A stretch of 59,996 nucleotides of DNA from a virus. Lineage: Duplodnaviria; Caudoviricetes. A model generated the notes under the pieces. The model saw nothing but the letters and a program-made list of their open reading frames with translations, was not told the DNA's origin and searched no databases. Positions 1-17,743 of this stretch are shown in pieces. The stretch is taken from positions 1 through 59,996 of IMG/VR virus record IMGVR_UViG_3300023174_000183; one strand, given 5' to 3'. How positions within the stretch are numbered: position 1 is the stretch's first letter; every line of letters starts with the position of its first letter. Made by a program: the position numbers and the translations under genes.

Positions 1-19
1 AGATTCCTAATATGTTCAT
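1..19 (-). CDS. Possible start of a carbamoyltransferase (NodU/CmcH family), only 6 codons visible
   Basis: ATG AAC ATA TTA GGA ATC T = MNILGI(S), overlapping the end of the SGNH ORF. Matches the usual MxILGIS...HD N-terminus of this family but is far too short to be sure. Confidence 0.3.
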
Positions 20-536
20 TGATTCGATCTGCTATTAATTGATGACCTGCCTCCAATGGATGTCCGCCAGAGCCCAAACTACAATCTCCCATCCACTCCA
101 CCAAACCTTGCTTGGGCCAACCCAAATAACAATCTAGACCAGCACCAGAAGCATATTTCTGTATATCAAATGCACTGACAAAGACATGCGGTATGTCTTT
201 AAGATAATTATCAAGTAATTTAATTTGTGTTAAAAATTTTGAATATGCCCATTGCTCGTCCCAATCTCTAAAAACCTCTTCAACAACTTTTCCGTATTTT
301 CTAAAACTACCTGAGGTAAGATGTTTATTTGAAATTTCTATTCTGTTGGGACTAGTCCAAGCAACAATGACTCCGTCAACTCGATTGTTGTCCACAAAGT
401 CTACGGTACTTCTTAAAATATAATCATTGCTGGCACCGGCCGTTGCAATATTAACAACATCAATATCCAACTTTCGAGGCCAAGCAATTGGAGATTCTTC
501 CCCAGAGGTAAAACTACATCCGTTAACTAATATCAT
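1..536 (-). CDS. SGNH/GDSL hydrolase-like protein (3' end runs off window; not in ORF track)
   Basis: Manual translation from ATG at 536: MILVNGCSFTSGEE...NIATAGASNDYI...VAWTSPNRIE...GGHPLEAGHQLIADRINEHIRN. G-C-S block I, G-x-x-N block II region and GHP block V-like motif. ATGA overlap with the upstream small ORF. Confidence 0.8.
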   Translation of the reverse strand, partial: MILVNGCSFTSGEESPIAWPRKLDIDVVNIATAGASNDYILRSTVDFVDNNRVDGVIVAWTSPNRIEISNKHLTSGSFRKYGKVVEEVFRDWDEQWAYSKFLTQIKLLDNYLKDIPHVFVSAFDIQKYASGAGLDCYLGWPKQGLVEWMGDCSLGSGGHPLEAGHQLIADRINEHIRN

Positions 537-634
537 TTGTAGATAAATGGATCGCGTTTACGTAACTCTTTAAGTCTCTTACGGTAAGTAATTTCTAAAA
601 CAATACGAGCATAAATTTTTCGTAACCAACTCAT
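533..634 (-). CDS. 33-aa basic small protein MSWLRKIYARIVLEITYRKRLKELRKRDPFIYK (not in ORF track)
   Basis: GGAGAG RBS about 7 nt upstream of ATG 634; TGA overlaps the ATG of the SGNH gene (ATGA); fills the operon gap exactly. Confidence 0.8.
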   Translation of the reverse strand: MSWLRKIYARIVLEITYRKRLKELRKRDPFIYK

Positions 635-649
635 CAAATTTCTCTCCGA

Positions 650-1804
650 TTAATTATATTTACTACTAAAATCATATCCTGCCTTCATTGAATCAATCTG
701 TTGCTGTTGATAATCATCATCTGACCAGCAATAGTTAAATTGACCGCATGTGCCATTGACTTCAATTTGATAAATGTCCAAATATTTTCCCAATATTTTT
801 CTAATTTCTATTGGACTGTCGGTACCAAAGCTTCTGATCAAATCAACCCGCCCAATGGGCAAATACCCCAGACTTAAATTAACGTCCGCAGGATCTCGAT
901 TATTATCCCTCAGCCATTGTTGAAATCGATCCTGCTCTTGATCATGCCATGGCATACCATTACCATAAGTGACATTATTGCCCCATTCAATATCAAACTC
1001 GCCACTGTAGTATTTGAGTTCAGTAATGGCCTCACATATTGTGTCAGTCAGTACTGGGGCATGTTCATCACGAAAAACCTCAAACAATGTTTTACCGACC
1101 TGTGTCCAATGCATGTAAACTCTGCCAAATTCTCGATCATATCCATTAGTCAAAAACAACTGCCTGTGCTCATACGTTAATTCATAACGCTGGGCCTGCA
1201 GGAATGTAGTAATCTGGCTAGGACGCACCCATTCTGGTAATACTGCCTGTTTACGCTGACTCAATATCAATGTCTCAATTTCGTGGCAGATATTGTTGAG
1301 TTGCCTGATGGCATATTTGGTTTCATAATCAGCCAGTTTATAATACTCACTGAGATTCCAAGCAACCCCTTGTAATCTTTCAAAATGATTATGCAGACGA
1401 TTCATGGCCTCGTGTTTGACACTGAGTCCCAAATTTTCATCATCCCACCCAATGGGATAATCACTATCAAATCTCACAACATCGGGAGTAAAATAATCTT
1501 CAATTATATAAGACCTTAACCCTGCATCTTGCCAGATCTTTTTTCGATTAAAAAGATTAATTCGACGAATATGCTGATTAAGTTCATTACAGAGATAATT
1601 TAAATCTCTAGCAGTTTCAGGAAATCCCATGAAACAGTAGTTTTTTTCTAGCGGTCTTTCTGACTTTAGTAGTTCTTTAAGAGCACCGACCCAATCTTGA
1701 GCCAACAAGTGTACATCAGGGATTATCCAGTAATCCAATGTGTCAGACTTGTTAGTGGGATTTCTTAAAGTGACTTTAACAGTTGATGGATTGATACCAC
1801 TCAT
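650..1804 (-). CDS. Hypothetical protein with His/Glu motifs (possible metalloenzyme)
   Basis: 384-aa ORF overlapping the upstream rSAM gene; motifs LHNHFE, ICHEIE, YMHWTQVGKT. Confidence 0.75.
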   Translation of the reverse strand: MSGINPSTVKVTLRNPTNKSDTLDYWIIPDVHLLAQDWVGALKELLKSERPLEKNYCFMGFPETARDLNYLCNELNQHIRRINLFNRKKIWQDAGLRSYIIEDYFTPDVVRFDSDYPIGWDDENLGLSVKHEAMNRLHNHFERLQGVAWNLSEYYKLADYETKYAIRQLNNICHEIETLILSQRKQAVLPEWVRPSQITTFLQAQRYELTYEHRQLFLTNGYDREFGRVYMHWTQVGKTLFEVFRDEHAPVLTDTICEAITELKYYSGEFDIEWGNNVTYGNGMPWHDQEQDRFQQWLRDNNRDPADVNLSLGYLPIGRVDLIRSFGTDSPIEIRKILGKYLDIYQIEVNGTCGQFNYCWSDDDYQQQQIDSMKAGYDFSSKYN

Positions 1805-3077
1805 AAACCTCAGGCCTTGTGCTCAAAATATCTGCTAATGTGTATGTATCTGATCTAATGGCTTCTAATTTTAAAATTCTTGATTTGCCTTTACACAACC
1901 CTGATTGATATTCATTGGGCCATTGCTCGGCAAATGTAGGTCGAGTTTTGAGTTGTATCAGAATGTCTCGCAATGCGCCCGATGTCGTGGGCAGTAGTTC
2001 GTCTATCCAGGCATGCAACATGCCTCGAGGCAACGCTAGAGGCGAAAGTAGGATATCTGGACTAAAGCTAAAAACCACTTTGGCCAAGATATCCACACCC
2101 AAATCATCTGCTAACTTTTGAATATTCGCTATTTCAAACATACCCGGAAGGGTAAGTGTGAAATCAATTCTCATCTGACGACGATGCGTAGCGATTCGAA
2201 CACCAGCCTTAAAGTTTTCAAGCCACGCTGCATAATCGAGACCTGTTCGTATATACTCTCCAATTCGTCCCGTACCATCGATGCTTGCACATATTTGCCA
2301 GTCTCGTAGCCCAACCAAAATATCACTGTAGAGATTGATACCACGGTAATTGACGCGGCTAAGATTTGTGTTGTATCTAGCGTAAACATTTTTACCATCT
2401 CCCAGTTCAACAATTCGTCGCATATAGCGCCAATGTTGTTCATACATTAGAGGCTCACCGCCTACCCAATAAACTTCTTCAATTTGATGGTTCTCAACTG
2501 CTGCTGCAAACTCCTGCTCAATTTGTGTTTCTTGAAAATATTCGATTTGTTTTTTTATTTCTGACCGCATCCAATTATTCTTGGTATCATGCCAGTTGAT
2601 CATGTCGTGCTGTCGTTGTTCGGTTTCCCAGGCACTGCTTAACATGTCGCCGCACATACGGCATTTGAAATTGCAGAGATTACTGAAACGGTAATCCCAG
2701 CTGACAGGTTGCATGGTAGTATACCCCGATGCATCTGTGGTTTCCCATATGCTATTGTACTTATGTCCGAACAACTGATTAAAATAGCTGCGGTATACAT
2801 CGGTATTTAATAGCTTATTATTGCATACTTCACACTCGGGCAATGTTTCTCCCGCCATCATACGTCGACGCACCGACTTCATGTGCTCGCTATTCCAATG
2901 CTGCTCTAGTGTGATAGGAATGTACTTGCCTGTGCCGGCCCCGGTGTCGATATACTGTTGGAAGTTTTGTGCTGGCTCGCGACTAGCACAGCACATTCTT
3001 CGCTCAGTTTGAGGACTTAAATAGGTATGCGTCCAGGGGGCCATGCAAAAATTAGGTTTGCTGTTGGGGATAGTCAT
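1776..3077 (-). CDS. Radical SAM enzyme with N-terminal Twitch/SPASM-like domain (type B)
   Basis: CNFKCRMC, GGEP, YNTN; N-terminal CMAPW...CC...CEVC. Start moved to ATG 3077 (MTIPNSK), just after the upstream stop. Confidence 0.9.
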   Translation of the reverse strand: MTIPNSKPNFCMAPWTHTYLSPQTERRMCCASREPAQNFQQYIDTGAGTGKYIPITLEQHWNSEHMKSVRRRMMAGETLPECEVCNNKLLNTDVYRSYFNQLFGHKYNSIWETTDASGYTTMQPVSWDYRFSNLCNFKCRMCGDMLSSAWETEQRQHDMINWHDTKNNWMRSEIKKQIEYFQETQIEQEFAAAVENHQIEEVYWVGGEPLMYEQHWRYMRRIVELGDGKNVYARYNTNLSRVNYRGINLYSDILVGLRDWQICASIDGTGRIGEYIRTGLDYAAWLENFKAGVRIATHRRQMRIDFTLTLPGMFEIANIQKLADDLGVDILAKVVFSFSPDILLSPLALPRGMLHAWIDELLPTTSGALRDILIQLKTRPTFAEQWPNEYQSGLCKGKSRILKLEAIRSDTYTLADILSTRPEVYEWYQSINC

Positions 3078-3090
3078 TACAATACCGAGG

Positions 3091-4287
3091 TCAATACCCC
3101 ATAGCCCTGGCAATTTCGGGATGTGTTTCAGCAAAACTTTGCTTTCTATATTGATCGGCCAATTTCATTACCATTAAAAATTTTTGGCCATCGCTGCCAG
3201 ACCCGTTACGAATAAACTGAACAATGCGTTCAATTTCTGCACGATATTTGGTGTGAAACTTGTGATCAGTCAATCTTTCGATCACCAACTGTTGTGCTGC
3301 GGGGGTCATGCGGCCAATATTCATGTGCCAGGGATCATGCAACATATTGAAATATATGTAGTCAAAATTTTGAGCGCTAGCCCAGTCACAAATTTCTGGC
3401 AAATAATAGACATTCTGAACATTCATTGTGGTGCAGAGTTGTGTGATAATTTTCTCACTGCGCATGGCTGAAAACTTATTCAAATTTTCTTGCACTTCCA
3501 ACCATTCTGCACCGTACCGTTCGAGTTCAAACCGCTCGCCGATGTTATCTATGCTGAACGCAATTTCCACACGATTGAACTTGCTCCACAGTTCAGCAGC
3601 ATCAGGGAACACAGTGCCATTGGTGTTGTAATGAATGTCAATGTGCTGGCTGTGGCCATGTTCTGCGGCATACTCCAACAAATCAAAATGCTGCTGAATC
3701 AGAAAGGGCTCCCCGCCAGTGAACTCAAAATATCTGATGTTGGGCAGCAGACTTTTTAGGTTTTCCCAAAAGTCAGGGCTTTCTCGGGGCCACGCGCCTT
3801 GCTGCAGAAACTTATATGCCAGATGTTCTTTTCTGTTCGCAAGAGCAGGAACATAATCAATTTCTTCCTGGACCCACTTGCTGCTGCTCCAGCTGCCGCA
3901 AATACGACATTTGAGATTGCAAATATTGCCCAATTTAAGATCAATGAACCACAATTGGTCAGGGTTGACATTGTGCCAATCCACTTGATCATAATACTCT
4001 TTAAGACGAATCCGACTGTTGATTCTTTTACTGGTTCGACCTGCAGCCTCCTCTTCCCAGCAACGATCGCAAGTAGAGGGTTTATTGCCTGATAAAAATT
4101 CCTGCCTAAGATTTTGCATATACTCACTGTGATAAATCTCTTCAAGATTATGCTCTTTAAGCAAATATTTTTCGCCAGTGGATTTGGTTATTTCATCTTT
4201 GGCCAAACAACAAGGACGAGCTGTGCCAATAGGACTAGTCTCAATGCTGATCCATGGAAGTATACAAATGCTATTAGGTAATGTCAT
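3091..4287 (-). CDS. Radical SAM enzyme with N-terminal Twitch/SPASM-like domain (type B)
   Basis: CNLKCRIC, TGGEPF, YNTNGT; N-terminal CILPW...CC...CDRC. Confidence 0.92.
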   Translation of the reverse strand: MTLPNSICILPWISIETSPIGTARPCCLAKDEITKSTGEKYLLKEHNLEEIYHSEYMQNLRQEFLSGNKPSTCDRCWEEEAAGRTSKRINSRIRLKEYYDQVDWHNVNPDQLWFIDLKLGNICNLKCRICGSWSSSKWVQEEIDYVPALANRKEHLAYKFLQQGAWPRESPDFWENLKSLLPNIRYFEFTGGEPFLIQQHFDLLEYAAEHGHSQHIDIHYNTNGTVFPDAAELWSKFNRVEIAFSIDNIGERFELERYGAEWLEVQENLNKFSAMRSEKIITQLCTTMNVQNVYYLPEICDWASAQNFDYIYFNMLHDPWHMNIGRMTPAAQQLVIERLTDHKFHTKYRAEIERIVQFIRNGSGSDGQKFLMVMKLADQYRKQSFAETHPEIARAMGY

Positions 4288-5617
4288 GTGGTAAAGAGCT
4301 CAATTCAGTAAATACTTGCCAGAAATCTTCATTTCTGACTCGATCAAGTTTGGCGGTCTCCGCAACAAACTTATTCCAGTGTTGGCTGTTGTCCTTGGCC
4401 ATCATAAAGTTGATGGCACTTTCAAAACCATTTGTGGCTCGTTTTAAATCGTCCTGCGGGCGCAACCATTCCAAATGTTTACGGTACGCCGGTTCAACAA
4501 TTTCTCGCTTAAATTGTTCTGGTAATACATCAATTCTGTGCCATTCAGGACTCTGACAAATATTAACATTGAAATCTTTGGCTTTTATTAAGCCCAATTC
4601 AGTCCATTCGCGGTGGAAATCTAATACGTGCAGTATATTGGCAGCACTAACAGTTGCACTGATATAAAAGTCTGCGTGTGGAACTTCACGCATCATACGC
4701 TCGCGATTAGCCACAGTTTGCTGCCAATCAGCACCTTTACGCAGGATTTCTGCACGGTGACCGCTAGCATCCAGACTAGCACCAACATTGACAGTTTTAA
4801 AATGCTTCCAGTACTCAAACACATGTTTATTTTTATATCTGAGCTCACTAAAATTAGTATTATACATGAGTCTGACATCAGTCTTACCCAGCTCGATCAA
4901 TTTTTCCAGTAATAGGTAATGCTCTTTCATGATCAAAGGTTCGCCACCAGCAAAATAAACTTGTTCCAAATGCGGAATGTGTGGTTGCATTTGCTCCCAA
5001 ATATCCATCTCATGGCGACCAGCGTACTCCACTGTGGTCATTTCTCTGCCCAAAACATCTGGGTTTCTATTATAAAGTTTAATGTGATCACCATACCAAT
5101 TACTGCTGAAGATAGGCCCACAGGTTCTGCAACGGAAATTGCAGAGATTACTGAATCTCACATCCCAGTATCTAATATTGAATTCTGGATGCTCGCCATC
5201 TTCAAGAGTCTGTTCTACTTCTGCAATATGATGACCATAATTTCTGTTGGCATCATACCGCATACTGAAAAATCCACTTTTCTCTTGTTCATAGCATTTG
5301 TTGCATTCCTTACTGGATCGTTCATTCAGCATGTTTTGCCGCAACTGTTTATAGGCACCCTGATTCCATACAGTCACCATATCATCCTTGCGCAGATCGC
5401 CTAAAGGATGCCAGTAGTCTGCCAAACAACAAGGATACACTCTCCCATCAGGAAATGCATGCATATGTACCCAAGGTAACATGCAAAATGTCTTGCTCTC
5501 CAAAAGCAATTCTTTTTGTTTCTCTGTTAAACTTTCTAGATCGGCAAAATATGGTGCTCTGGCTGTGTAACTATAGCCTTTGTTGTAAAAACCTTTGATG
5601 TCGTTTGGTTCGCTCAT
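4274..5617 (-). CDS. Radical SAM enzyme with N-terminal Twitch/SPASM-like domain (type B)
   Basis: CNFRCRTC, AGGEPL, YNTN; N-terminal CMLPW...DGRVYPCC...LGDL...CNKC. Confidence 0.92.
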   Translation of the reverse strand: MSEPNDIKGFYNKGYSYTARAPYFADLESLTEKQKELLLESKTFCMLPWVHMHAFPDGRVYPCCLADYWHPLGDLRKDDMVTVWNQGAYKQLRQNMLNERSSKECNKCYEQEKSGFFSMRYDANRNYGHHIAEVEQTLEDGEHPEFNIRYWDVRFSNLCNFRCRTCGPIFSSNWYGDHIKLYNRNPDVLGREMTTVEYAGRHEMDIWEQMQPHIPHLEQVYFAGGEPLIMKEHYLLLEKLIELGKTDVRLMYNTNFSELRYKNKHVFEYWKHFKTVNVGASLDASGHRAEILRKGADWQQTVANRERMMREVPHADFYISATVSAANILHVLDFHREWTELGLIKAKDFNVNICQSPEWHRIDVLPEQFKREIVEPAYRKHLEWLRPQDDLKRATNGFESAINFMMAKDNSQHWNKFVAETAKLDRVRNEDFWQVFTELSSLPHDIT

Positions 5618-7014
5618 AGTGTGGTGTACCAGTTGGCTAATTGTGGAAACGCTGTGATAAAATCTTTATTTCGTCGTTGATCGTATTGAGAAAAAAATCT
5701 TTTAAAATCTTTTGCCAAAAGGTTAGTATCAGTCTGACAATCTGATTCATTGTAAGTTTTTTTCTCAAATGATATTTTGGACTCTTTGTGTGGGTCAACG
5801 ACGTTATTCAAATATACAGAAAATCTACGTAGTTGATTAACGGTATAGTCTCCAAAAAAATTGTTAAAGTCTGATTCAGACAAAAAAGTATCTAATTTTT
5901 TAGCATATTCTGATCTTAGATTGTCTGGCAAAACTACAATATTTTGGAAAGTGGGCCAGCGTAACGGATTAACCGATATCATCATCCTGCCCGGGGACAA
6001 GGTTGACGGCAAATTTTTCTTTTTTTCCAATGCCCATTCCAAAAATTCAACGAATCCATCAATTGACGGTACACTGGGTGTAGTACAAATTCCAAATTGT
6101 GATATAGCAGGATGCTGAATCACTTTATCAACATTTTCTTCCCACTGCTGCCAACTTATTCCATCACGGACATATTCTGATTTTTCTCCAATGGACTCGT
6201 TACTGCTCCAAATTTCTATGTGATTATCCAGTTGGCTACAGATATCAAGAAATCTGTCAAGAGTCTCGCTGTCATATGCCAAATTGGTGGTCATATGTAT
6301 ATGGCAGGAACTCTTCTTAGGATTATCCCGCAACCATTCTAAAAGTTTCCAAGTGTGGCCACTCATCATAGGTTCCCCACCAGTGATTCTTAAAATTTTC
6401 AACGATTTGTGTAAATCTGTTTCCCACCATTTAAAAAATGCTTCGGCGTAAGGATTTTCGTCCCCAAACTTATATACAGAAACATCGTCGCAAGATGATA
6501 TATAAGTCTGCCGTAAATCAGACTCTAAATTTTTATAAGGCCCTGCTCTGCGTATATCGCGCGCCCAAGTGCTGCTAATTGCAGGGGAACAGTATGCACA
6601 CCCAAGTTGACAGGTTCTATCAAAACTAATTTCTAGATAATCTAAATCGTAATCAGCATTTGGATCTCCATTAAATGCTGCGTCTAATCTTGGTAGGCTG
6701 GACATCTCGCTGAATAACACTCGATCAGACACCGACTCTGGACTGGTTTCTTCCATAACCCAACAAAATTGACAGTTTAATGGTTTTTCTCCACGTTGCA
6801 TCATGGCCCTCTGTTCTTTTTTGATCGGAGTATTGTGTAATGCACTAGGATTATTTCTAACCTCTTCCAAATTAATCGCATGCGGCGGGTTATGGTGACA
6901 ACTGGTAGTCCACCCTGCATGTAAATGTATACTAGCATTGTACCATTTTGCGCCGCAGAAACTTGGACTTTTTGTATCTAAAACATTTAATTTAAATATT
7001 TTTGGGTTTGTCAT
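5614..7014 (-). CDS. Radical SAM enzyme with N-terminal Cys/His domain (type A)
   Basis: CQLGCAYC, TGGEPM; N-terminal CGAKW...SCHH...CQFCW. Confidence 0.92.
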   Translation of the reverse strand: MTNPKIFKLNVLDTKSPSFCGAKWYNASIHLHAGWTTSCHHNPPHAINLEEVRNNPSALHNTPIKKEQRAMMQRGEKPLNCQFCWVMEETSPESVSDRVLFSEMSSLPRLDAAFNGDPNADYDLDYLEISFDRTCQLGCAYCSPAISSTWARDIRRAGPYKNLESDLRQTYISSCDDVSVYKFGDENPYAEAFFKWWETDLHKSLKILRITGGEPMMSGHTWKLLEWLRDNPKKSSCHIHMTTNLAYDSETLDRFLDICSQLDNHIEIWSSNESIGEKSEYVRDGISWQQWEENVDKVIQHPAISQFGICTTPSVPSIDGFVEFLEWALEKKKNLPSTLSPGRMMISVNPLRWPTFQNIVVLPDNLRSEYAKKLDTFLSESDFNNFFGDYTVNQLRRFSVYLNNVVDPHKESKISFEKKTYNESDCQTDTNLLAKDFKRFFSQYDQRRNKDFITAFPQLANWYTTL

Positions 7015-8363
7015 AGTGTGTTGTACCAGTCGATCAGTTGCGGAAATGTCTTTTTAAAATCTTTGTTGCGCCTCTGATCATATTGTTGGTGAAATTGTTT
7101 GAAATCGTTATGTAATGCCGGGGGGTCAAATGCATCACTGTGCGGTGTTTTAACAATGTCCAAATAGTCAATTAGACGTTGCACATGATTTTTCTCGTGT
7201 TCGTGCAGCATACAATGGTCATTAAATTTATTTAACCAATCAATTAACCGCTGTCTATGTTTCATGCGAATGTTGTCGGGCAACACTAACGGACTTTGGA
7301 AACTGGGAAAGCGCAGAATATTTAATGTAAAGTTAGGGTTATTCTTCCCCCATTGGCTCTTCCATTCCATGAGCATGGTTAGAAATTCTGGCAAACTTTC
7401 CAGGCAAAGAGCATTAATTGTGCACATGACATGTAATCCGCGCAACCGGCCGCTGCGCATCAAAAACCACATGTTACTGGTCCACTGCTCCCATTCTAGT
7501 CCATCACGAATGTACTCTGCATGATCATGCATGCTCTCGTTACTGGTGTAGAGATCTAGTTCAATGCCCGCAGTGCTGTCCAGTAACTCTTCCAGTACTG
7601 ATTGATCGAAACACAAATTGCTGTTGATGGCCAAACGAGTCTGACTAGCACCACGATTATTCTTGAACCAATCCAACAGACGTTTAGTATATCCGCTCAT
7701 GAGTGGTTCGCCGCCAGTGATACGCAATTCGGTCAATGTTTGATGTAGGTCCGATTCCCACCATTTGAAGAAGGCTTCGACGTACGGATTAGTTTCACCG
7801 AGTTTATAGAGTTGAGCACTATCATGCTCGTGAGTGAAATGGTTACGACCGTCGCTGACCAAATTGACGTATGCTCCATTTCGATGAACATCACGTACCC
7901 AGCTGGTGCTGAAAGCAGGATTGCAATAACTACAGGCCAGTTGGCAAGTTCTGTCAAATGCGATTTCCAAAGTTTTAAGATTGATGTCTTGATTTGAATC
8001 CGTTTGATATGCATGTTCTAGGTCCTCATCTTTATAAATTACAGTTTTATACACTCGATCACTGATGGCATCTACCCCCATGTCTTCAATTTTCCAGCAG
8101 TACTCGCAACCAGCAGGGCGCTGCCCTTGTTGCATCTGATGACGTTCTTGCTTTTTGCGTGACGTATTATGCAACGCACGTGGATTTGCCTCAACTTCCT
8201 CTATCGACACTTTATGTGGCAAAGGATGATGACAACTGGTAGTCATGCCTGACCCCAACCATATGGTGGCATTGTACCATTTAGCAGCGCAAAAACTAGC
8301 CGATTTGATATCAATTACTCTGCGACGGTATTCTAGATCTGTTTCGTTATGCTGTTTCGGCAT
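7011..8363 (-). CDS. Radical SAM enzyme with N-terminal Cys/His domain (type A)
   Basis: CQLACSYC, TGGEPL; N-terminal CAAKW...SCHH...CEYCW. Confidence 0.92.
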   Translation of the reverse strand: MPKQHNETDLEYRRRVIDIKSASFCAAKWYNATIWLGSGMTTSCHHPLPHKVSIEEVEANPRALHNTSRKKQERHQMQQGQRPAGCEYCWKIEDMGVDAISDRVYKTVIYKDEDLEHAYQTDSNQDINLKTLEIAFDRTCQLACSYCNPAFSTSWVRDVHRNGAYVNLVSDGRNHFTHEHDSAQLYKLGETNPYVEAFFKWWESDLHQTLTELRITGGEPLMSGYTKRLLDWFKNNRGASQTRLAINSNLCFDQSVLEELLDSTAGIELDLYTSNESMHDHAEYIRDGLEWEQWTSNMWFLMRSGRLRGLHVMCTINALCLESLPEFLTMLMEWKSQWGKNNPNFTLNILRFPSFQSPLVLPDNIRMKHRQRLIDWLNKFNDHCMLHEHEKNHVQRLIDYLDIVKTPHSDAFDPPALHNDFKQFHQQYDQRRNKDFKKTFPQLIDWYNTL

Positions 8364-9738
8364 AATACTTGCACTCCTGCCAGAATTCTTTCATTATGGG
8401 AAAGGTTTTAATAAAACTAAATCCGCGACGTTTGTCGTATTCATTAAAAAATCTATAAAAATCTGCTCGTTGTTGCTTTATATACTCAGGGTCTAGACTT
8501 TGCCCATTTTTCATCCAGGCAATATTTCTGCGCATGCGTTGAACTTCATAATCTTTAAATCCATCAAATCTATCAACACCTTCGGGCAGTTGATTGGACG
8601 CCATCCAATCGGCAACATCTTCTAGTATTTGCATATAACTAATAGGCAGAATCTGCAGGCTTTGCCAGGCGGGTTGTCTGAGCAGTGGCGTATCAAACCA
8701 GACACGCTGATAAGTCTGACTATGTTTTTTGCGTTGTTCCAGAACAATTTCCAATAACTTTCGCAGACCCAGAATATTGAGATTGCTCATGGTAATGATG
8801 TAGGTCAGACTGTTTCTGTAAGGCACTCTGGTTAAAAATTCCTCAGTGTTATGCAAACACTTGTCTAGATTGAGACCACCGCGTATGTACTCGCTCTGTT
8901 CTTTGATGCCCGAATCCAAACTCACATACTGCATGAAGTGTTCAATTTTTGTGCCCCGACACAGTTGTTCAACCTTGTGCATGTATTTCTCAAACAATGC
9001 ATCATCCACGCTGAAATTACTGGTGACGTCCACATGCAAATCACTCTTGGGCAGGGCCAAGATATAATCAAACACTCGATGCGTATTCTTGTCCATGAGT
9101 GGCTCACCACCAGTCATGCGAAAATGCTTGAGGTGAGGATACAGCTCTGGCCACCAACGCCAGAAGGCTTCCACATAGGGATTTTCTTCACGAACCGGAA
9201 TGGGTTTACGGCGCCCCTGAAAGTGTATGGGATCATTGTGCGGTGTGGTGGTGGGATAGGCCCCCCAGCGATCAATTTCTTTGCCCCACTCGGTGCTGAA
9301 CTGTGGACTGCAATAACTGCAGGCCAGATTACATCCGTGACTAAAGTTAACTTCCACATAACTGGGTGTGGCATCCTGATCCCAGGAACCATGGGCTATT
9401 TCTTCATAGTGTTCTGCTGCCCAAGGTTCGCCACTGCGATAATGCCTGTCACTAAGTTGGCCGTTGTCTTCGGCCGACCAACAATAAGCACACTCTGGCG
9501 GACGTTGCTGCTCCAACATCAACTTACGTTGTGCTTTCTTGTGCGCAGTATTGTGTAATGCGCCGGGATTGAACGTCAAAGGAGCAGCATCAATTTCATG
9601 CAAAGGAGGATGATAGCAGCTATTGGTCAACCCAGTAGGTAGATGCAAACTAACCTGCTGCCATTTGGCCAAACACAATGCGTGCCCTAGCTTCTCACGC
9701 ATCAACTCGGCTGTGCCCATAAAATTGCTTTTATTCAC
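8347..9738 (-). CDS. Radical SAM enzyme with N-terminal Cys/His domain (type A)
   Basis: CNLACSYC, TGGEPL; N-terminal CLAKW...SCYH...CAYCW. Likely start is GTG 9738 (or ATG 9720) rather than 9819, which overlaps the upstream gene by about 90 nt. Confidence 0.9.
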   Translation of the reverse strand: MNKSNFMGTAELMREKLGHALCLAKWQQVSLHLPTGLTNSCYHPPLHEIDAAPLTFNPGALHNTAHKKAQRKLMLEQQRPPECAYCWSAEDNGQLSDRHYRSGEPWAAEHYEEIAHGSWDQDATPSYVEVNFSHGCNLACSYCSPQFSTEWGKEIDRWGAYPTTTPHNDPIHFQGRRKPIPVREENPYVEAFWRWWPELYPHLKHFRMTGGEPLMDKNTHRVFDYILALPKSDLHVDVTSNFSVDDALFEKYMHKVEQLCRGTKIEHFMQYVSLDSGIKEQSEYIRGGLNLDKCLHNTEEFLTRVPYRNSLTYIITMSNLNILGLRKLLEIVLEQRKKHSQTYQRVWFDTPLLRQPAWQSLQILPISYMQILEDVADWMASNQLPEGVDRFDGFKDYEVQRMRRNIAWMKNGQSLDPEYIKQQRADFYRFFNEYDKRRGFSFIKTFPIMKEFWQECKYYAETA

Positions 9739-10627
9739 GAACCATCGGACCTTTGTTTTGGAAATTACTGCGATAGTGATGTTTGAAAAACGCACTGTCA
9801 GTGGGGTCCATATCAACAATGCTTAGTCCCAGTCGAGTTCGTAGAACCTGCCCCAATTCTGCACAGTGCTCGGGCTCGTGTATATGATACTCTTGCCAAA
9901 GTGCAGATAATGCATCAAAATCCTGAACTTGGCGATAATCCCAGTCGGTCAGCATGGTTCGATAGGTGCCCAGTCTGGCACCGTAAATGGCCCAGAATCC
10001 ATTTTCCACATCTGCTCCCACGCTCTGCCATATGCATAAGTTGTCATAATTGCGACTGTGTACACGTTGCTCAAAGTTTTCTAATGTAGGTTTGGCACCG
10101 CGATCCAAGCACATTTTAACACCTTCGCGGAATCCCGCTCGCCAGGCCTGAAAGGGCGTCTGATTGGGATAAGTCACACTGTAGCGGTCATTCATAGCCC
10201 AGTAGTTGGGATAAAAGCAGAACTCTACATCATTGGCCGCTGAGCCGTCACTGGCTTCATGAGTCTTCATGTTGTGTACAAATTCTTTAGTCCAGCAGCT
10301 CATGCCGCCATTGCCATACTGCAGACCATTGATGATGTTTCTGGCTTTCCAGCGAAACACACAGTCTCGATTGGTTGTATCCAGCTTCAACTGCAGATTA
10401 AAAAATTCTGGATCTGGTAAATTATCGCCGTCAATCAGAACAAAGCGATCGGTATCGCTGGCGTCGGCAGCAGCCTTGTGCGCAGCGTCTGAGCCTTTGA
10501 CTCCGTCCACGCGTTTGGCCCAGGGCACCATGTTCTGTATCTTAACCCAAAACTCTTCCTTCTTGGGTTCATCGTATGTGAGGTAAATGCAATCTAAATC
10601 TGCAACATCAACTATTTCTACGCTCAT
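9731..10627 (-). CDS. GT-A fold glycosyltransferase-like protein
   Basis: N-terminal beta strand DCIYLTYDE, AAHKAAA helix, then FVLIDGDN (DxD), the GT2-like arrangement. Confidence 0.65.
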   Translation of the reverse strand: MSVEIVDVADLDCIYLTYDEPKKEEFWVKIQNMVPWAKRVDGVKGSDAAHKAAADASDTDRFVLIDGDNLPDPEFFNLQLKLDTTNRDCVFRWKARNIINGLQYGNGGMSCWTKEFVHNMKTHEASDGSAANDVEFCFYPNYWAMNDRYSVTYPNQTPFQAWRAGFREGVKMCLDRGAKPTLENFEQRVHSRNYDNLCIWQSVGADVENGFWAIYGARLGTYRTMLTDWDYRQVQDFDALSALWQEYHIHEPEHCAELGQVLRTRLGLSIVDMDPTDSAFFKHHYRSNFQNKGPMVRE

Positions 10628-10964
10628 AATATTCCGTTTCTAAATAGTCATCTTCTACAACAATGCTAGCATGACCTTTAACTACTTTAACACCTTTGTT
10701 GCTGCGAGTCAAAGCAAAATGATGCAGGTATGTGGGCTCAACTCGAATTATTTTACCGTCCACTACTTTTAAAAAATTCCAATCATGTAAAATATATATC
10801 TCTCTACTGATGTGTATCCAATTATCGCCGTCAGGAAACCCGCTGCCTGAAAATCCCGTGACACAACCATCTGCATCATAGTAAGCTCGATACTCCGTCG
10901 ATGCCACAGGATGATCGGTTAGCAATTCCAAAGCCTGGAGAAATTCTGCCTCACCTGGTAGCAT
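10608..10964 (-). CDS. Hypothetical protein
   Basis: ORF overlapping both neighbours; probable start ATG 10964 (MLPGEAEF). Confidence 0.7.
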   Translation of the reverse strand: MLPGEAEFLQALELLTDHPVASTEYRAYYDADGCVTGFSGSGFPDGDNWIHISREIYILHDWNFLKVVDGKIIRVEPTYLHHFALTRSNKGVKVVKGHASIVVEDDYLETEYYERRNS

Positions 10965-11769
10965 GAATAAATCTCTTCTCATAATAATGCACTGGGTAGT
11001 ATTGATTGCGATTGTTGATTCTTACTATATTATCCTGCCATTCGACATTGACATGATCAGTCACTGCTTGGGTTTCATTCCAGCCTAGAATTTGTGGTTT
11101 GAGGTGTACAAAATTGAAAAAATCTAGGCTAGGAATAGTGCAATGTTCCTGTCCTAAAATTTTAGCAGCAATGGCAAATGCAACATCTGTGGTAGGCAAG
11201 TCGTCCACTAACATCAGATGATTTTTTATCTGCTGCCAATTGTCATAAACATCACGAGCCGTTCTAAAAAAATCTGCCGAAGTCTGACTGTATCTAAAAT
11301 AATACATGCCAGTGTAAATATCTGGCAGATTATTTTCTTTAAAAATTTTTCTGTAGGGGCTTAATTTGACCTGCCGTTCATACAGATCTTGACAATACAG
11401 GCTAAAACAAATATCTCTTAACCGCAAACCAGTTAGCCAATGACCAACGTCTCGAGTAAACAACAGATCACTTTCCAGCTTGATGGTTTCTTTAAAAGGG
11501 GTTAGATAGAACACTTGCCACTCATTGCTCATTTTCCAAGATTCATTCTTGGCCCAATCTGTTTTTAATGTGATGATATGATCGAATACTTGTCGATGAC
11601 GATCTGTGATCAGCTCCAACGTCGCAGCATCCACTAGAACTGCAAACTCATGCTGCTGTTGTGTGGCTTTGATATTCAGTGCTTGCTGATAAGCCAACTC
11701 TAGATAATCAGTGATGTCGTTATTCTGTGCAATGGTCAAAAAACCTACTTGACTTTTAAATTTACGCAT
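10951..11769 (-). CDS. GT-A (GT8-like) glycosyltransferase-like protein, degenerate DxD
   Basis: GFLTIAQN...DY...; LTPFKETIKLESDLLF aligns with LSPYDQTILIDGDYFV of the upstream paralog. Probable start ATG 11769 overlaps the upstream stop. Confidence 0.6.
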   Translation of the reverse strand: MRKFKSQVGFLTIAQNNDITDYLELAYQQALNIKATQQQHEFAVLVDAATLELITDRHRQVFDHIITLKTDWAKNESWKMSNEWQVFYLTPFKETIKLESDLLFTRDVGHWLTGLRLRDICFSLYCQDLYERQVKLSPYRKIFKENNLPDIYTGMYYFRYSQTSADFFRTARDVYDNWQQIKNHLMLVDDLPTTDVAFAIAAKILGQEHCTIPSLDFFNFVHLKPQILGWNETQAVTDHVNVEWQDNIVRINNRNQYYPVHYYEKRFIHATR

Positions 11770-12538
11770 TGGTTGCTGCCTCAATCAATCGTTGGCATTC
11801 GTCTGATAATATCCAGGCTTTGCTCATTAAATGAATATTTTGTTTGGGTAGCACAAATGCTTGTCCTGCGGTTTTCAAATAAAAGTTTGAACCTTTGAGT
11901 TCCAAACTATCAATCGGGCCGGGCACGCTGACGATGGGCCAAGGCAAATAATTTTTACTATCGGAACTGTAACCGTTTATGATATTGTCAGCAATAGTAA
12001 ATGCATAATCATTTCTAAAATTTCTAGCTTCGATATTGTAGAGGTCTCTGTAATATTGATAATTGCGCTCAATTGCACCCACCAGATCAAATAACATTTT
12101 GGTCTTGGGAGTTTTATTAAACACCATCACAGTTGCCCACAATGTATCCAGGCTATATTGGCCCATTTGATTGCTGTGTTGACTGCAGACATAATTATTT
12201 GTTTTTGTTATCTGATAATCCGACACCACATCTAAAATTTTTAGTAGATTATCATCAAAAACAAAATAGTCACCATCAATCAGAATTGTCTGATCATACG
12301 GACTCAGCTCATGGGCCAAATATCTACCACCGTTGTGCCAGGCTTCAAACTTACCGGAATCGATATTGTATCGGTGATTGATTAGATCCTGCCCCGTGAC
12401 AATGGTCACCGGCAATTTAAGATAATGCTCGGCCAGAATCTTAGCTCGTTGAGCAATGGTAGTGTAATCTATATAACCGGTATTGTTGGCAAATATCAAT
12501 ACGCCTTTAGATTTTTCTGACACTTCTAAGTTCTTCAT
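11762..12538 (-). CDS. GT-A (GT8-like) glycosyltransferase-like protein
   Basis: KGVLIFANN...DY; LSPYDQTILIDGDYFV (DxD); WATVMVF; FRNDYAF. Confidence 0.65.
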   Translation of the reverse strand: MKNLEVSEKSKGVLIFANNTGYIDYTTIAQRAKILAEHYLKLPVTIVTGQDLINHRYNIDSGKFEAWHNGGRYLAHELSPYDQTILIDGDYFVFDDNLLKILDVVSDYQITKTNNYVCSQHSNQMGQYSLDTLWATVMVFNKTPKTKMLFDLVGAIERNYQYYRDLYNIEARNFRNDYAFTIADNIINGYSSDSKNYLPWPIVSVPGPIDSLELKGSNFYLKTAGQAFVLPKQNIHLMSKAWILSDECQRLIEAATNA

Positions 12539-12824
12539 GTTGGATGTGCCATGTATTCATCACTGATTGATAACATTCTCTGGCCTGCTGCAGAAGTTCT
12601 GTTCTAAGGCATTTGATGGGATTGCCATAGACGTCTTCAACAAATAATTCATCGGTGGGCCAAGTGGACAAAAAAGCCAGCAAAGTTTGATCAACTAAAA
12701 ATAATCCGCCATTATACGCCAAATGCAGATCAATTTTAATTTTTTCCTGCAGTGCGCGTTTATTAATTTGAAAGTCGGTGGCTTGTTTAACTTGATTGAT
12801 AATATTTTCAGTGGTGGTGGTCAT
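12507..12824 (-). CDS. Hypothetical protein, first gene of the GT/rSAM operon
   Basis: 105-aa ORF overlapping the downstream GT gene; TAATTA 5 nt upstream of the ATG. Confidence 0.7.
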   Translation of the reverse strand: MTTTTENIINQVKQATDFQINKRALQEKIKIDLHLAYNGGLFLVDQTLLAFLSTWPTDELFVEDVYGNPIKCLRTELLQQARECYQSVMNTWHIQHEELRSVRKI

Positions 12825-12829
12825 ACTTG

Positions 12830-12835
12830 TAATTA
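12830..12835 (-). promoter_or_regulatory. Putative late promoter variant (TAATTA), leaderless
   Basis: One mismatch to TAAATA, with the same 5-nt spacing to ATG as at 17718 and 56014; no RBS. Confidence 0.4.
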
Positions 12836-12856
12836 TCTACGAAAGTGTGGTGTCAA

Positions 12857-12887
12857 AATAAAAGCACTGTCTAGCAGTGCTTTTATT
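12857..12887. terminator. Intrinsic terminator (bidirectional-looking)
   Basis: AATAAAAGCACTG-tctag-CAGTGCTTTTATT, a 13-bp inverted repeat downstream of the 12915-13856 gene. Confidence 0.75.
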
Positions 12888-12914
12888 ATACAAACTCGAC
12901 CGATTAAAATCAAA

Positions 12915-13856
12915 TTAGTTTACTGTTGAAGCTGCTGTCACTGAGCCCCATGTGTTGGTAAGGTTGGTGGTTTCTGGTGGTGTAACCACAACGTTGGCGT
13001 TGATGGTCATGTTGATTGCATCATCAAATGTATCAGTTGCAGCATCATTATAGTTAATGGTAAATGTGATAACGTTGCCCAACCCACCATTAGAACCCGC
13101 AGTGCCTGAAATTTTGGCCAGCACTTCCACATAGTTGGTAGTGTAGGCAGCAGTGGTATCTGTCAATTTGATCAGTGTCTGATCTGATGTTGTTAGATCC
13201 CAGAATCCAATTGCACTGCCGTCGGTGGTTAGTGTGCCGCCAGTGCCAGTACGGCCACTGGTTGTAAAATCAAAATTTAGTGTTGCCAATTTGGTACCCA
13301 ATAACGATGTCCAGGCGGTTTCTTTGGCATTATCTGCACCGTTGGTCACAGCAAAACTCAATGCAACTCTGCCACCGGCGTTGAAAAAATAACGTGCTTG
13401 ATCACTGCTGGCAAATGTCACTGTGCGAACTTGTTGGAATGTTGTTGGGCTTGCAACGTTCCATATTGCACTCAATGAGGTAGTTGCCGGTGTGCCACGT
13501 GTGCTGTTAAAAGTTGCACGATTGGTATATGCAGTAGAAATCTTTGATGATAGTGTGCTTAAAGCAGCGATGGTATCGCCAGCAGTGGGACTTGTTAGCC
13601 CTGAACCGGCACCTGCTTGGTGGATTAGTATACTGTTTAATCTTGCCAACAAGGTTGACCATTGGGTAGCAGTTACAGTATCACCGGTGGCCACTGCCGA
13701 CAATGTGGTGCTCTGACCATATCCCTTGTCGCCTGAGCCCACGCCCCATACTGTGTTAATGTTTGCTACTGCATTATTGGCAGTGCCATCAGCATTGCCT
13801 GTTGCAAATGTATTGTAGTGATCGCGTAGGATCAAGTCACCGGTCTGATAAGCCAT
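12915..13856 (-). CDS. Virion structural protein (fibre/baseplate associated)
   Basis: Thr/Ala/Gly-rich, GYGQ, ARYFFNAGG motif; last gene of the tail operon. Confidence 0.7.
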   Translation of the reverse strand: MAYQTGDLILRDHYNTFATGNADGTANNAVANINTVWGVGSGDKGYGQSTTLSAVATGDTVTATQWSTLLARLNSILIHQAGAGSGLTSPTAGDTIAALSTLSSKISTAYTNRATFNSTRGTPATTSLSAIWNVASPTTFQQVRTVTFASSDQARYFFNAGGRVALSFAVTNGADNAKETAWTSLLGTKLATLNFDFTTSGRTGTGGTLTTDGSAIGFWDLTTSDQTLIKLTDTTAAYTTNYVEVLAKISGTAGSNGGLGNVITFTINYNDAATDTFDDAINMTINANVVVTPPETTNLTNTWGSVTAASTVN

Positions 13857-13869
13857 TTTTTAGTTCCTT

Positions 13870-15591: not shown

Positions 15592-15610
15592 CTTTTATGA
15601 CCTATAGTAG

Positions 15611-15617
15611 TATTTAT
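15611..15617 (-). promoter_or_regulatory. gp55-type late promoter (ATAAATA)
   Basis: Intergenic match to the T4 late consensus TATAAATA upstream of ATG 15591. Confidence 0.6.
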
Positions 15618-15632
15618 TTAGTAAAAACACCG

Positions 15633-17039: not shown

Positions 17040-17052
17040 GATCTTTTCCTAG

Positions 17053-17712: not shown

Positions 17713-17717
17713 AGTAT

Positions 17718-17724
17718 TATTTAT
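17718..17724 (-). promoter_or_regulatory. Late promoter ATAAATA, leaderless
   Basis: ATAAATA-ATACT-ATG(17712). Confidence 0.6.
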
Positions 17725-17743
17725 TTCGTTCTTAGTATCCATT

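What the first reader, a model, noticed from the sequence alone, without database searches (positions are those of the whole stretch)
1..12835. Phage-encoded biosynthetic operon: three glycosyltransferase-like genes plus six radical SAM enzymes and tailoring genes
Seen: about 13 co-directional genes, nearly all with overlapping stop/start codons. They are GT-A-like x3, radical SAM x6 in an unbroken row (1776-9738), an unknown His/Glu protein, a 33-aa peptide, an SGNH protein and perhaps a carbamoyltransferase start. The operon lies directly downstream of the tail fibre genes and begins at a late-promoter-like site. Known: Twitch-domain radical SAM enzymes such as BtrN act on sugar/aminocyclitol hydroxyls; SGNH proteins add or remove O-acyl groups on glycans; NodU-type enzymes O-carbamoylate sugars. 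Inference: a late pathway that builds an unusual, radically tailored glycan, most plausibly on the virion (Ser/Thr/Asn-rich fibres or capsid). Alternatives are DNA hypermodification or host-surface remodelling. I know of no characterised phage pathway with six such enzymes.
Basis: partly seen in the sequence, partly recalled or inferred. Interest (0 to 1): 0.88.

Follow-up and report, generated by a model that had tools for sequence, protein, structure and literature searches.

The report
Phage radical-SAM sugar-tailoring operon
An uncultured giant T4-like phage carries, just after its tail-fibre genes, a tightly packed row of three sugar-transferring enzymes, six untested iron-sulfur radical enzymes, a tiny conserved peptide and sugar-decorating enzymes. 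The row most likely builds and edits an unusual sugar chain, but its target and chemistry are unknown.

Summary
Window 2-12824 (minus strand) has 15 co-directional, mostly overlapping genes. They are g1; two GT8-like paralogs (g2, g3); g4; a GT-A-fold protein with an invariant DGD motif (g5); six N-terminal-twitch radical SAM enzymes (NF033640, E 1e-82 to 1e-119); a 384-aa protein of unassigned fold (g12); a real 33-aa peptide (g13); an SGNH/DUF6071 protein (g14); and the first six codons of a carbamoyltransferase.

- **Conservation:** 45 of 68 related viral loci keep five rSAM orthologs in the same order. rC is an accessory sixth copy.
- **Promoter:** the operon starts at a conserved sigma70-type promoter nested in a terminator-like hairpin, not at a late promoter. 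The late motif ATAAATA is absent there.
- **Support for sugar tailoring:** 10 of 24 bacterial homolog loci lie among polysaccharide or sugar-nucleotide genes. Complete relatives (about 355 kb) carry 10-11 family copies beside sugar-nucleotide enzymes. The cultured Ralstonia phage RsoM2USA has a fibre-g2-g3-g5-rSAM mini-module.

The acceptor (virion, host envelope, peptide or small molecule) is unresolved. Hydroxymethyl-pyrimidine DNA glycosylation is unlikely. Earlier notes of this scan describe the same kind of operon on other genomes.

The parts
2..19 (-). First six codons (MNILGI) of a NodU/CmcH-type carbamoyltransferase. The gene runs off the window.
   Evidence: The full 490-aa gene in L007 (the relative whose rD is 97% identical) hits Carbam_trans_N (E 4e-39) and Carbam_trans_C (E 4e-52).
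3..536 (-). g14: SGNH/GDSL-like protein (DUF6071). About 5 codons at the 3' end are missing.
   Evidence: Ser8 and two His are invariant. 31 of 39 family members hit DUF6071 and 25 of 39 hit Lipase_GDSL_2.
533..634 (-). g13: conserved 33-aa basic peptide with an invariant C-terminal DPFIY inside a near-invariant KELRKRDPFIYK stretch.
   Evidence: alignment; codon-position diversity is 0.24/0.14/0.46, and both other frames have stops in 31 of 31 sequences; the motif occurs in 58 of 68 viral loci.
650..1804 (-). g12: 384-aa conserved protein of unassigned fold with invariant His/Glu residues. The model is a beta-barrel with an inserted four-helix bundle.
1776..3077 (-). rF: N-twitch radical SAM, core orthogroup.
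3091..4287 (-). rE: N-twitch radical SAM, core orthogroup.
4274..5617 (-). rD: N-twitch radical SAM, core orthogroup. This is the type with many bacterial relatives.
5614..7014 (-). rC: N-twitch radical SAM, an accessory copy that is sister to rB.
   Evidence: an ortholog at 45% identity or more is found in only 2 of 68 loci.
7011..8363 (-). rB: N-twitch radical SAM, core orthogroup.
8347..9738 (-). rA: N-twitch radical SAM, core orthogroup. It always follows g5.
9731..10627 (-). g5: GT-A-fold nucleotide-sugar transferase-like protein with an invariant DGD motif and a C-terminal helical domain.
10608..10982 (-). g4: small conserved protein with no family. Its start codon is uncertain.
10951..11784 (-). 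g3: GT8-like (glycogenin-like) GT-A protein. Its start codon is uncertain.
11762..12538 (-). g2: paralog of g3 with invariant D88 and D90.
12507..12824 (-). g1: 105-aa conserved viral protein with no family. The Atlas lead to DUF4376 is weak.
12857..12913 (-). Sigma70-like promoter (-35 TTGATT at 12913-12908, -10 TATAAT at 12890-12885) overlapping a 13-pair hairpin with a T-run (12887-12857).
12915..17039 (-). Context: three tail-fibre-like genes (tf1 12915-13856, tf2 13870-15591, tf3 15633-17039). tf1 is 19% Thr.
   Evidence: (tail-fibre PHROGs for tf2 and tf3).

Best explanation
The operon is a self-contained transcription unit. It encodes a soluble, cytoplasmic pathway that builds and chemically edits a sugar chain.

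Shown:
- There are three GT-A-type transferase-like proteins and six intact N-twitch radical SAM enzymes. Five belong to conserved orthogroups and one is accessory.
- There is an SGNH esterase/acyltransferase-like protein and a carbamoyltransferase.
- All proteins lack membrane segments.
- The operon has its own conserved sigma70-type promoter nested in a terminator-like hairpin after the fibre genes.

Inferred:
- The transferases assemble a short glycan from nucleotide sugars. Relatives of this phage encode enzymes that can modify such sugars.
- Each radical SAM enzyme abstracts a hydrogen from a specific sugar position to drive an edit. Possible edits are epimerisation, oxidation, deoxygenation or C-C bond formation.
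- The SGNH protein and the carbamoyltransferase add or remove O-acyl and O-carbamoyl groups.
- Host RNA polymerase probably transcribes the unit from early in infection.
- The acceptor is not known. I rate the phage's own fibre or virion proteins most likely (about 0.35) because of the deeply conserved position behind fibre genes. A host envelope glycan comes next.
For: - **Family and intactness:**
- **GT assignments:**
- **SGNH and carbamoyltransferase:**
- **Conservation:** 45 of 68 viral loci have all five core rSAM orthologs, all 45 in the order rA-rB-rD-rE-rF, and 40 of them also have g2, g3 and g5. Most of the other 23 loci are cut short or belong to a distant lineage.
- **Cultured relative:** Ralstonia phage RsoM2USA has fibre-like gene, g2, g3, g5, rSAM and a second g5-like gene in the same order.
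- **Bacterial homolog contexts:** 10 of 24 loci examined have GTs, Wzm/Wzt-type exporters, sugar-nucleotide enzymes, carbamoyltransferase or GDSL genes beside the rSAM. L125 combines a carbamoyltransferase, a GT4-GDSL fusion and three N-twitch rSAMs.
- **Complete relatives:** 10-11 family copies per genome pass the cut-off. Scattered copies lie beside SDR dehydratases, DegT aminotransferases, a cytidylyltransferase/mannose-6-P-isomerase-like gene, methyltransferases and transketolase halves.
- **Solubility:** the maximum 19-residue hydropathy is below 1.6 for all 14 proteins.
- **Promoter:**
Against: - No enzyme of NF033640 has a tested activity that I could find, so the chemistry is inferred from context only.
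- 14 of 24 bacterial homolog loci show no clear glycan context. One lies beside an NRPS. I ran no base-rate control.
- g5's fold scores (Z 8-9.8) are only modestly above the background quoted for that tool. Nucleotidyltransferases of the same fold score alike.
- The operon has no initiating or exporting component, and no acceptor is identified.
- The conserved peptide g13 and the unknown g12 have no role in this scheme.
- An early-type promoter fits a virion-decoration role less naturally than a late one would. By my own recollection, chlorovirus glycosylation genes are also early.
Confidence: 0.55

Rival explanations
1. Host-surface remodelling. The soluble enzymes act on the host's lipid-linked O-antigen or capsule intermediates at the cytoplasmic face, from early in infection. 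This changes the cell surface and blocks superinfection by competing phages.
For: - The promoter is sigma70-type and the unit has a moron-like promoter-plus-terminator layout.
- Bacterial homologs of rD sit inside Wzm/Wzt-type polysaccharide clusters (L088 and L093; L090 has the same tailoring genes beside an ABC ATPase).
- The same idea was proposed for GT8 genes in the pelagimyophage host recognition cluster (PMC7029224, passages read).
Against: - The operon has no membrane protein, flippase or polyprenyl-phosphate transferase.
- The module's position behind fibre genes is conserved as far as RsoM2USA, and a host-directed role does not explain that.
- The benefit to a strictly lytic phage is uncertain.
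Confidence: 0.2
2. Peptide-derived product. The 33-aa peptide g13 is the substrate. Radical SAM enzymes cross-link or edit it and the GT-like proteins glycosylate it, giving a phage-made modified peptide or cofactor. The analogy is mycofactocin, a radical-SAM-made, glycosylated peptide-derived cofactor (recalled, not from a call).
For: - g13 is under purifying selection and as conserved as the enzymes: 61-91% identity to the window copy, with invariant E15, Y18, R19 and DPFIY.
- It travels with rSAM genes even in distant loci that lack g12 and g14 (L073).
- It is absent from the true bacterial clusters and present only in phage-type ones.
- The twitch domain is a shortened relative of the SPASM domain, which is common in peptide maturases. 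Weak NCBIfam side-hits to peptide maturases appear.
Against: - No RiPP recognition element or PqqD-like domain is found in any operon protein.
- Bacterial family members work without such a peptide.
- The peptide lacks Cys and looks like a basic amphipathic helix.
- L068, L069 and RsoM2USA have GT+rSAM modules but no detected g13.
Confidence: 0.1
3. Small-molecule product. The operon, with the sugar-nucleotide enzymes elsewhere in the genome, makes a free modified sugar, pseudo-oligosaccharide or aminoglycoside-like metabolite rather than decorating a macromolecule.
For: - The enzyme set resembles aminoglycoside tailoring: twitch-type rSAM, DegT aminotransferase, SDR, carbamoyltransferase and a P-loop kinase. 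The resemblance itself is recalled knowledge, not a call result.
- All proteins are soluble.
- A cyanophage paper labelled similar genes 'antibiotic synthesis genes' (PMC12801897, passages read).
Against: - No cyclitol synthase or exporter was seen in the stretches examined.
- The conserved link to fibre genes is unexplained.
- GT8-like enzymes usually act on macromolecular or lipid-linked acceptors (recalled).
Confidence: 0.08
4. DNA hypermodification. The GTs and tailoring enzymes decorate phage DNA bases to evade restriction.
For: - T4-like phages glucosylate hydroxymethylcytosine (recalled).
- The promoter is early-type.
- A dCMP deaminase and a P-loop kinase lie just downstream in relatives.
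Against: - Only one thymidylate-synthase-family gene is found in each of 4 relative genomes, including both that are at least 98% complete, and none in the fifth (67% complete). It scores about 350 bits and, in G002, sits two genes from a DHFR gene, so it looks like ordinary ThyA. No second, hydroxymethylase-like copy is found.
- Bacterial homolog contexts point to polysaccharides.
Confidence: 0.04

Closest known systems
NCBIfam NF033640, N_Twi_rSAM (twitch domain-containing radical SAM protein)
   Same: All six enzymes pass the curated cut-off over the full model length. They have the N-terminal Cys-rich domain followed by CxxxCxxC.
   Different: The family is a catalogue entry. I found no tested function in 7 literature searches. 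Here six divergent members (18-31% identity to rA) sit in one operon, and relatives carry 10-11 per genome.
Sugar-tailoring radical SAM enzymes of aminoglycoside and deoxysugar pathways (BtrN, NeoN, DesII, AprD4; recalled, not from a call)
   Same: The proposed mode of action is the same: 5'-deoxyadenosyl radical abstraction of a sugar hydrogen, helped by one auxiliary cluster.
   Different: The auxiliary domain is N-terminal here, whereas it is C-terminal in BtrN (recalled). No solved structure matches rD by sequence at E up to 1. Membership is not claimed.
Host recognition cluster of T4-like pelagimyophages and cyanomyophages (PMC7029224); T4-like marine viral genome with 12 radical SAM genes (PMC5332604)
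   Same: Both have a variable island beside tail-fibre genes holding GT8 glycosyltransferases and radical SAM cassettes. Many rSAM genes occur in one T4-like genome (passages read).
   Different: Those papers give no family assignment, gene order or promoter. I could not see their figures or tables. Here there is a fixed five-enzyme core with three GT-like genes, a peptide, an SGNH protein and a carbamoyltransferase in about 355-kb phages.
Virus-encoded virion glycosylation: mycobacteriophage capsid and tail-tube glycans (Freeman et al. 2023, seen only as cited in a passage of PMC12619734; the paper itself is not held) and chlorovirus PBCV-1 capsid glycosyltransferase A64R (PDB 2p6w, 2p72, 2p73)
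   Same: Viral soluble GT-A enzymes are encoded near structural genes. A64R is among the structural matches of g5.
   Different: By my recollection, no radical SAM enzymes take part in those systems. Here the glycan and its acceptor are unknown.
Bacterial polysaccharide clusters containing N-twitch rSAM genes (for example L125 Crocinitomicaceae, L093, L088 Ca. Jettenia, L113)
   Same: The same toolkit recurs: rD-type rSAM with GTs, carbamoyltransferase, GDSL proteins, DegT/SDR enzymes and Wzt-type exporters.
   Different: The bacterial loci have one to three rSAMs, include export or membrane components, and lack g2, g3, g5, g12 and g13 homologs.

Membership tests
NF033640 N_Twi_rSAM | Full-length HMM score above the curated cut-off of 170 bits | tested here: met
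   rA 287, rB 285, rC 275, rD 398, rE 344 and rF 289 bits. A six-frame search of the record gave near-identical scores.
NF033640 N_Twi_rSAM | CxxxCxxC radical SAM cluster motif, preceded by an N-terminal Cys-rich (twitch/SPASM-like) domain | tested here: met
   C163, C167, C170 and four N-terminal Cys are invariant in all six. The Pfam SPASM model matches the N-terminus of rD, rE and rF, with rF below the gathering score.
BtrN-type twitch radical SAM dehydrogenases | Twitch domain C-terminal to the radical SAM core, and sequence relatedness to BtrN | tested here: not met
   The auxiliary domain is N-terminal. No PDB chain matches rD at E up to 1. That BtrN has a solved structure is recalled.
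GT8 (glycogenin/LgtC-like GT-A glycosyltransferases) | Sequence-profile relatedness to GT8 and an acidic metal-binding motif after strand 4 | tested here: inconclusive
   The g3 profile matches glycogenin-1 at E 8e-6, but only over profile positions 4-111. g2 is linked to g3 by hhalign (99.2%). g2 has invariant D88 and D90; g3 has an invariant D106 only. I made no structure model of g2 or g3.
GT-A fold nucleotide-sugar transferases (GT2-like) | Rossmann-like GT-A fold with a DxD motif | tested here: met
   The g5 model has pLDDT 91.3. All top Foldseek hits are of the GT-A / nucleotide-diphospho-sugar transferase fold, mostly glycosyltransferases. VIA Z is 8-9.8, rmsd 3.1-3.5 A over 136-143 residues. 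D66-G67-D68 is invariant. Nucleotidyltransferases of the same fold score similarly, so transferase activity is inferred.
SGNH/GDSL hydrolase superfamily (DUF6071) | N-terminal GDS(x) block with a nucleophile Ser and a C-terminal catalytic His | tested here: met
   The family consensus is GDSFTYGEE, with invariant S8, H159 and H165. The profile matches GDSL proteins in the PDB at E 1e-6. 31 of 39 members hit DUF6071. The window copy reads GCSFT, so the Asp is replaced.
NodU/CmcH carbamoyltransferases | Carbam_trans_N and Carbam_trans_C domains | tested here: met
   Met for the full gene in relatives L007 and G002. The window itself holds only the first six codons.
RiPP / peptide-derived cofactor clusters (PQQ, mycofactocin type) | A precursor peptide plus an rSAM maturase with a peptide-recognition (PqqD/RRE) domain | tested here: inconclusive
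   A conserved peptide is present. No PqqD or RRE domain was found in any operon protein. The binding test could not be run because the queue was full.
T4-type late transcription unit | TATAAATA-like late promoter upstream | tested here: not met
   None of 30 distinct tf1-g1 gaps holds ATAAATA. The motif is present upstream of four structural genes in this window.

The most novel reading that the evidence does not exclude
The conserved 33-aa peptide g13 is the true substrate or scaffold. The five core N-twitch radical SAM enzymes cross-link or edit it, and the three GT-like proteins glycosylate it. The phage would then make its own glycosylated, radical-tailored peptide or cofactor early in infection. 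This would be a viral counterpart of mycofactocin-type chemistry and a first function for a very large untested enzyme family.
Probability: 0.1. Interest if true: 0.9.

Novelty: new variant of a known kind. Interest (0 to 1): 0.62.

Why it matters
NF033640 is a very large enzyme family. One search scored 7,266 relatives of rD at E 1e-10 or better among the 8,000 candidates scored. My searches found no assayed member.

This operon places five fixed orthogroups of that family in a defined gene order with sugar transferases, across dozens of jumbo-phage loci, some bacterial genomes and one cultured phage. That gives biochemists a concrete, co-evolving enzyme set and candidate substrates.

If the product decorates tail fibres or the host surface, it would be a new way for phages to tune adsorption or exclusion. 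If it is a peptide or a small molecule, it would be a new class of viral natural product.

The promoter nested in a terminator hairpin is also a tidy, conserved regulatory device worth testing.

Tried and rejected
- **Close phage relatives:** nucleotide search of 1-12835 against 50,697 phage records found no match.
- **PDB by sequence:** rD found nothing at E up to 1. The g5 and g2 profiles gave nothing meaningful. The g12 profile gave nothing.
- **g12 fold:** Foldseek found no hit at E 0.1 or better. The VIA wide search gave cyclophilin-like barrels (Z 6.8-8.6) and helical bundles (Z up to 9.5), which is at that tool's stated background. The Atlas gave nothing useful. Seven longer proteins carry g12 as a C-terminal domain, but their N-terminal halves match no Pfam or NCBIfam model and none of my operon profiles.
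- **g1:** the Atlas gives only a weak lead to DUF4376 (score 0.90, 154 shared features).
- **g13 binding test:** Complex prediction with rA, rD and g13 was never accepted because the queue was full. There is no result of any kind.
- **RNA evidence:** no RNA holder was listed for 9000-15000, so timing rests on promoter type only.
- **Errors:** The search for related loci with the six-paralog alignment failed for lack of a conserved stretch. I then used an rD ortholog alignment.
- **Internal terminators:** terminator-like sites in 1-20000 are no more frequent than in shuffles (12 against 15.6).
- **Overprinted +1-frame genes inside rF, rB and rA:** the evidence is mixed and I did not adopt the idea.
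- **Papers:** 7 searches found no paper that characterises the family or the operon. The moraphage paper PMC12619734 does not contain the word 'radical'. Freeman et al. 2023 is not held.

Full report
**What the window is.** The window is a whole IMG/VR viral record of 59,996 bases that CheckV rates 17% complete. It encodes T4-type portal, prohead protease, major capsid and baseplate proteins (gp25, gp53, a T4 baseplate protein, a gp5-like spike). Related contigs reach 354-357 kb at 98-100% completeness. It is therefore a fragment of a T4-like jumbo phage of about 355 kb. No phage record in the 50,697-record collection is close at the DNA level.

**Anatomy.**
- All large ORFs from 43844 down to 3 lie on the minus strand.
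- After a 4,388-aa ORF and five more structural-looking genes, the last three fibre-like, there is a 90-nt gap (12825-12914).
- Fifteen co-directional genes follow, mostly overlapping by 4-32 nt: g1, g2, g3, g4, g5, rA, rB, rC, rD, rE, rF, g12, g13, g14 and the first six codons of a carbamoyltransferase.

**The radical SAM enzymes.**
- All six pass the curated cut-off of NCBIfam NF033640 (275-398 bits against 170).
- All keep CxxxCxxC and four N-terminal cysteines.
- They are old paralogs, 18-31% identical to rA. A tree of 62 family members separates them into orthogroups. rA, rB, rD, rE and rF each group with copies from distant phage relatives. rC is sister to rB.
- No solved structure is related to rD by sequence.

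**The other genes.**
- The g3 profile matches glycogenin (GT8) at E 8e-6 over its N-terminal 110 positions. g2 is a paralog of g3 (hhalign 99.2%).
- g5 gave a confident model (pLDDT 91.3). Residues 5-195 superpose on GT-A glycosyltransferases, including the chlorovirus capsid glycosyltransferase, at Z 8-9.8. D66-G67-D68 is invariant in 38 sequences.
- The g14 family is SGNH/GDSL (DUF6071).
- The carbamoyltransferase start (MNILGI, ATG at 19-17) continues into a full Carbam_trans_N/C protein in the relative whose rD is 97% identical.
- g12 models confidently (pLDDT 90.6) but matches nothing above background. Its family has 678 representatives at E 0.001 or better.
- g13 is a real gene. It is 33 aa with an invariant C-terminal DPFIY inside a near-invariant KELRKRDPFIYK stretch. 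Its codon-position diversity is 0.24/0.14/0.46, and both other frames are closed in 31 of 31 sequences.
- None of the 14 proteins has a membrane-like segment.

**Conservation.**
- A scan with rD found 68 viral loci.
- 45 carry all five core orthologs (at least 45% identity), and all 45 have them in the same order. 40 of these also have g2, g3 and g5.
- Of the 23 others, most are cut by contig ends, four have rE below my threshold and six belong to a distant lineage.
- Between rA and rF there are 5 rSAM genes in 22 loci, 6 in 18 and 7 in 5. The window's six is a common variant.
- rC orthologs occur in 2 of 68 loci. Extra rSAM and SGNH genes are inserted at varying places.
- Complete relatives hold 10-11 family members over the cut-off, half of them scattered around the genome.

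- The gap before g1 holds TTGATT-17-TATAAT (10 of 12), overlapping a 13-pair hairpin that runs into a T-tract.
- Across relatives, 21 of 28 distinct gaps have a sigma70-like promoter matching at least 10 of 12, against 0.65 expected from shuffles.
- In 15 of the 20 where my strict finder also saw a hairpin, the -10 hexamer lies inside the hairpin.
- None of 30 gaps has the late motif ATAAATA. In this window that motif precedes tf2, two baseplate or structural genes and a 981-aa gene.
- I infer an autonomous unit. The hairpin ends the fibre transcript, and host-type RNA polymerase starts a new one. In T4-like phages that promoter class is early (established knowledge). Timing was not measured: no RNA holder was listed.

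**What bears on function.**
- *Bacterial homologs of rD (33-45% identity).* Of 24 bacterial loci whose neighbours I annotated, 10 have glycan or sugar-nucleotide genes beside the rSAM. One search gave L125, L093, L088, L104 and L137. One search gave L083, L086, L090, L113 and L115. L078 was left out of the count because it looks like phage DNA.
- L125 pairs three N-twitch rSAMs with a carbamoyltransferase, a GT4-UbiA-GDSL fusion, a sulfotransferase and a GDSL protein.
- Fourteen loci show no such context, one lies beside an NRPS, and I ran no base-rate control.
- *Neighbourhoods in a complete relative.* In G002 the scattered rSAM copies and the stretch downstream of the core operon lie beside DegT aminotransferases, SDR dehydratases, a cytidylyltransferase/mannose-6-P-isomerase-like protein, methyltransferases and split transketolase genes.
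- *A cultured phage.* Ralstonia phage RsoM2USA (343.8 kb) has, after a fibre-like gene, homologs of g2 (E 3e-29), g3 (2e-37), g5 (2e-71), an rA/rB-type rSAM (3e-74) and a second g5-like gene, all annotated as hypothetical. Its genome paper never mentions 'radical'.
- *DNA modification.* Each of four relative genomes has a single thymidylate-synthase-family gene of about 350 bits, and a fifth, 67%-complete genome has none. In G002 it lies two genes from a DHFR gene. This argues against a hydroxymethyl-pyrimidine route to DNA glycosylation.

**Mechanism.** The best-supported reading is a cytoplasmic pathway that builds and edits a sugar chain.
- Shown: the enzyme families, their intactness, their fixed order, their solubility and their own promoter.
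- Inferred: that the GT-like proteins transfer sugars; that each rSAM edits a sugar position by hydrogen abstraction; and that the SGNH protein and carbamoyltransferase decorate hydroxyls.
- Open: the acceptor. The module's place behind fibre genes, conserved as far as RsoM2USA, favours the virion. The early-type promoter and the bacterial O-antigen contexts favour the host envelope.
- Unexplained: g13 and g12. g13 keeps alive a peptide-substrate rival, which I could not test because the complex predictor never accepted the job.

**Relation to what is known.**
- Passages of PMC7029224 describe a 'host recognition cluster' in pelagimyophages with fibres, GT8 genes and radical SAM cassettes.
- PMC5332604 mentions a T4-like genome with 12 radical SAM genes.
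- Neither gives family, order, promoter or function. I did not see their figures or supplements, which may show similar gene maps.
- Seven literature searches found no assay of the family.
- Eight earlier notes of this scan describe the same kind of operon on other genomes and reach the same family assignment. They are AI notes, not independent evidence.
- I tested one of them, which proposes overprinted +1-frame membrane proteins. Open +1 frames sit at conserved places in rF, rB and rA. They exceed synonymous-shuffle expectation in 80%, 53% and 40% of sampled orthologs, against 0-6% for most controls (0.18 for g3 offset 2, 0.24 for g5 offset 1). However, synonymous-site diversity is not lower inside them (p 0.08 to 0.35). 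I leave that claim open.

**Verdict.** 'Late' is wrong, and the acceptor and the chemistry are unknown. I class it as a new variant of a known kind: viral glycan biosynthesis, here with a radical SAM tailoring set.

Noticed in passing
window 2171-2443, 7733-8014, 9114-9392 (minus strand, +1 frame inside rF, rB, rA): Hydrophobic alternative-frame ORFs of 90-93 aa sit at positions that stay open in most orthologs. They are longer than synonymous shuffles allow in 80%, 53% and 40% of sampled orthologs. Synonymous diversity is not reduced inside them.
   Followed up: partly
window 19849-33015 (minus strand): A single 4,388-aa ORF lies between the baseplate genes and the fibre genes. Its only Pfam hit is an FG-GAP repeat. 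RsoM2USA has a virion protein of more than 288 kDa (ORF361) a few genes upstream of its GT/rSAM module, in the same structural block.
   Followed up: partly
window 45725-46450 (plus strand): A second DUF6071/SGNH-like gene sits between a metallophosphatase (gp47-like) gene and an SbcC-like ATPase gene, far from the operon. In relative G002 an N-twitch rSAM gene occupies the matching place.
   Followed up: no
G001 and G002 (relatives' whole genomes): Each genome has 10-11 NF033640 genes over the cut-off. G002 has a second cluster of family hits at about 206-212 kb: two over the cut-off and two just under, one of which is interrupted by stop codons, with a RecA-like gene between them.
   Followed up: partly
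L089 (Bacteriovoracaceae MAG contig, 83.9 kb): An array of at least eight N-twitch rSAM genes lies beside a ribosomal protein L21 gene, with members in the rA, rB, rD, rE and rF orthogroups. No g2, g3, g5, g12 or g13 homolog occurs within 8 kb. Whether this is bacterial DNA or mis-binned phage DNA is open.
   Followed up: partly
L078, L079 (Haliscomenobacter MAG), L076 (Legionellales MAG), L075 (Polynucleobacter MAG): Contigs filed under bacterial MAGs carry rSAM genes close to the window's (rD 49-69% identical). L076, L078 and L079 carry most of the phage-type operon, including g13, so they are probably phage DNA binned with a bacterium.
   Followed up: no
L049 (355-nt gap between tf1 and g1): This relative has an extra small ORF in the gap whose translation resembles an acyl carrier protein. 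This is my reading of the printed sequence. I did not run a family scan.
   Followed up: no
L082 (uncultured gammaproteobacterium MAG): The g13 C-terminal motif (KSDPFIYR) ends a longer, acidic ORF of about 90 aa near an rD-type rSAM gene.
   Followed up: no
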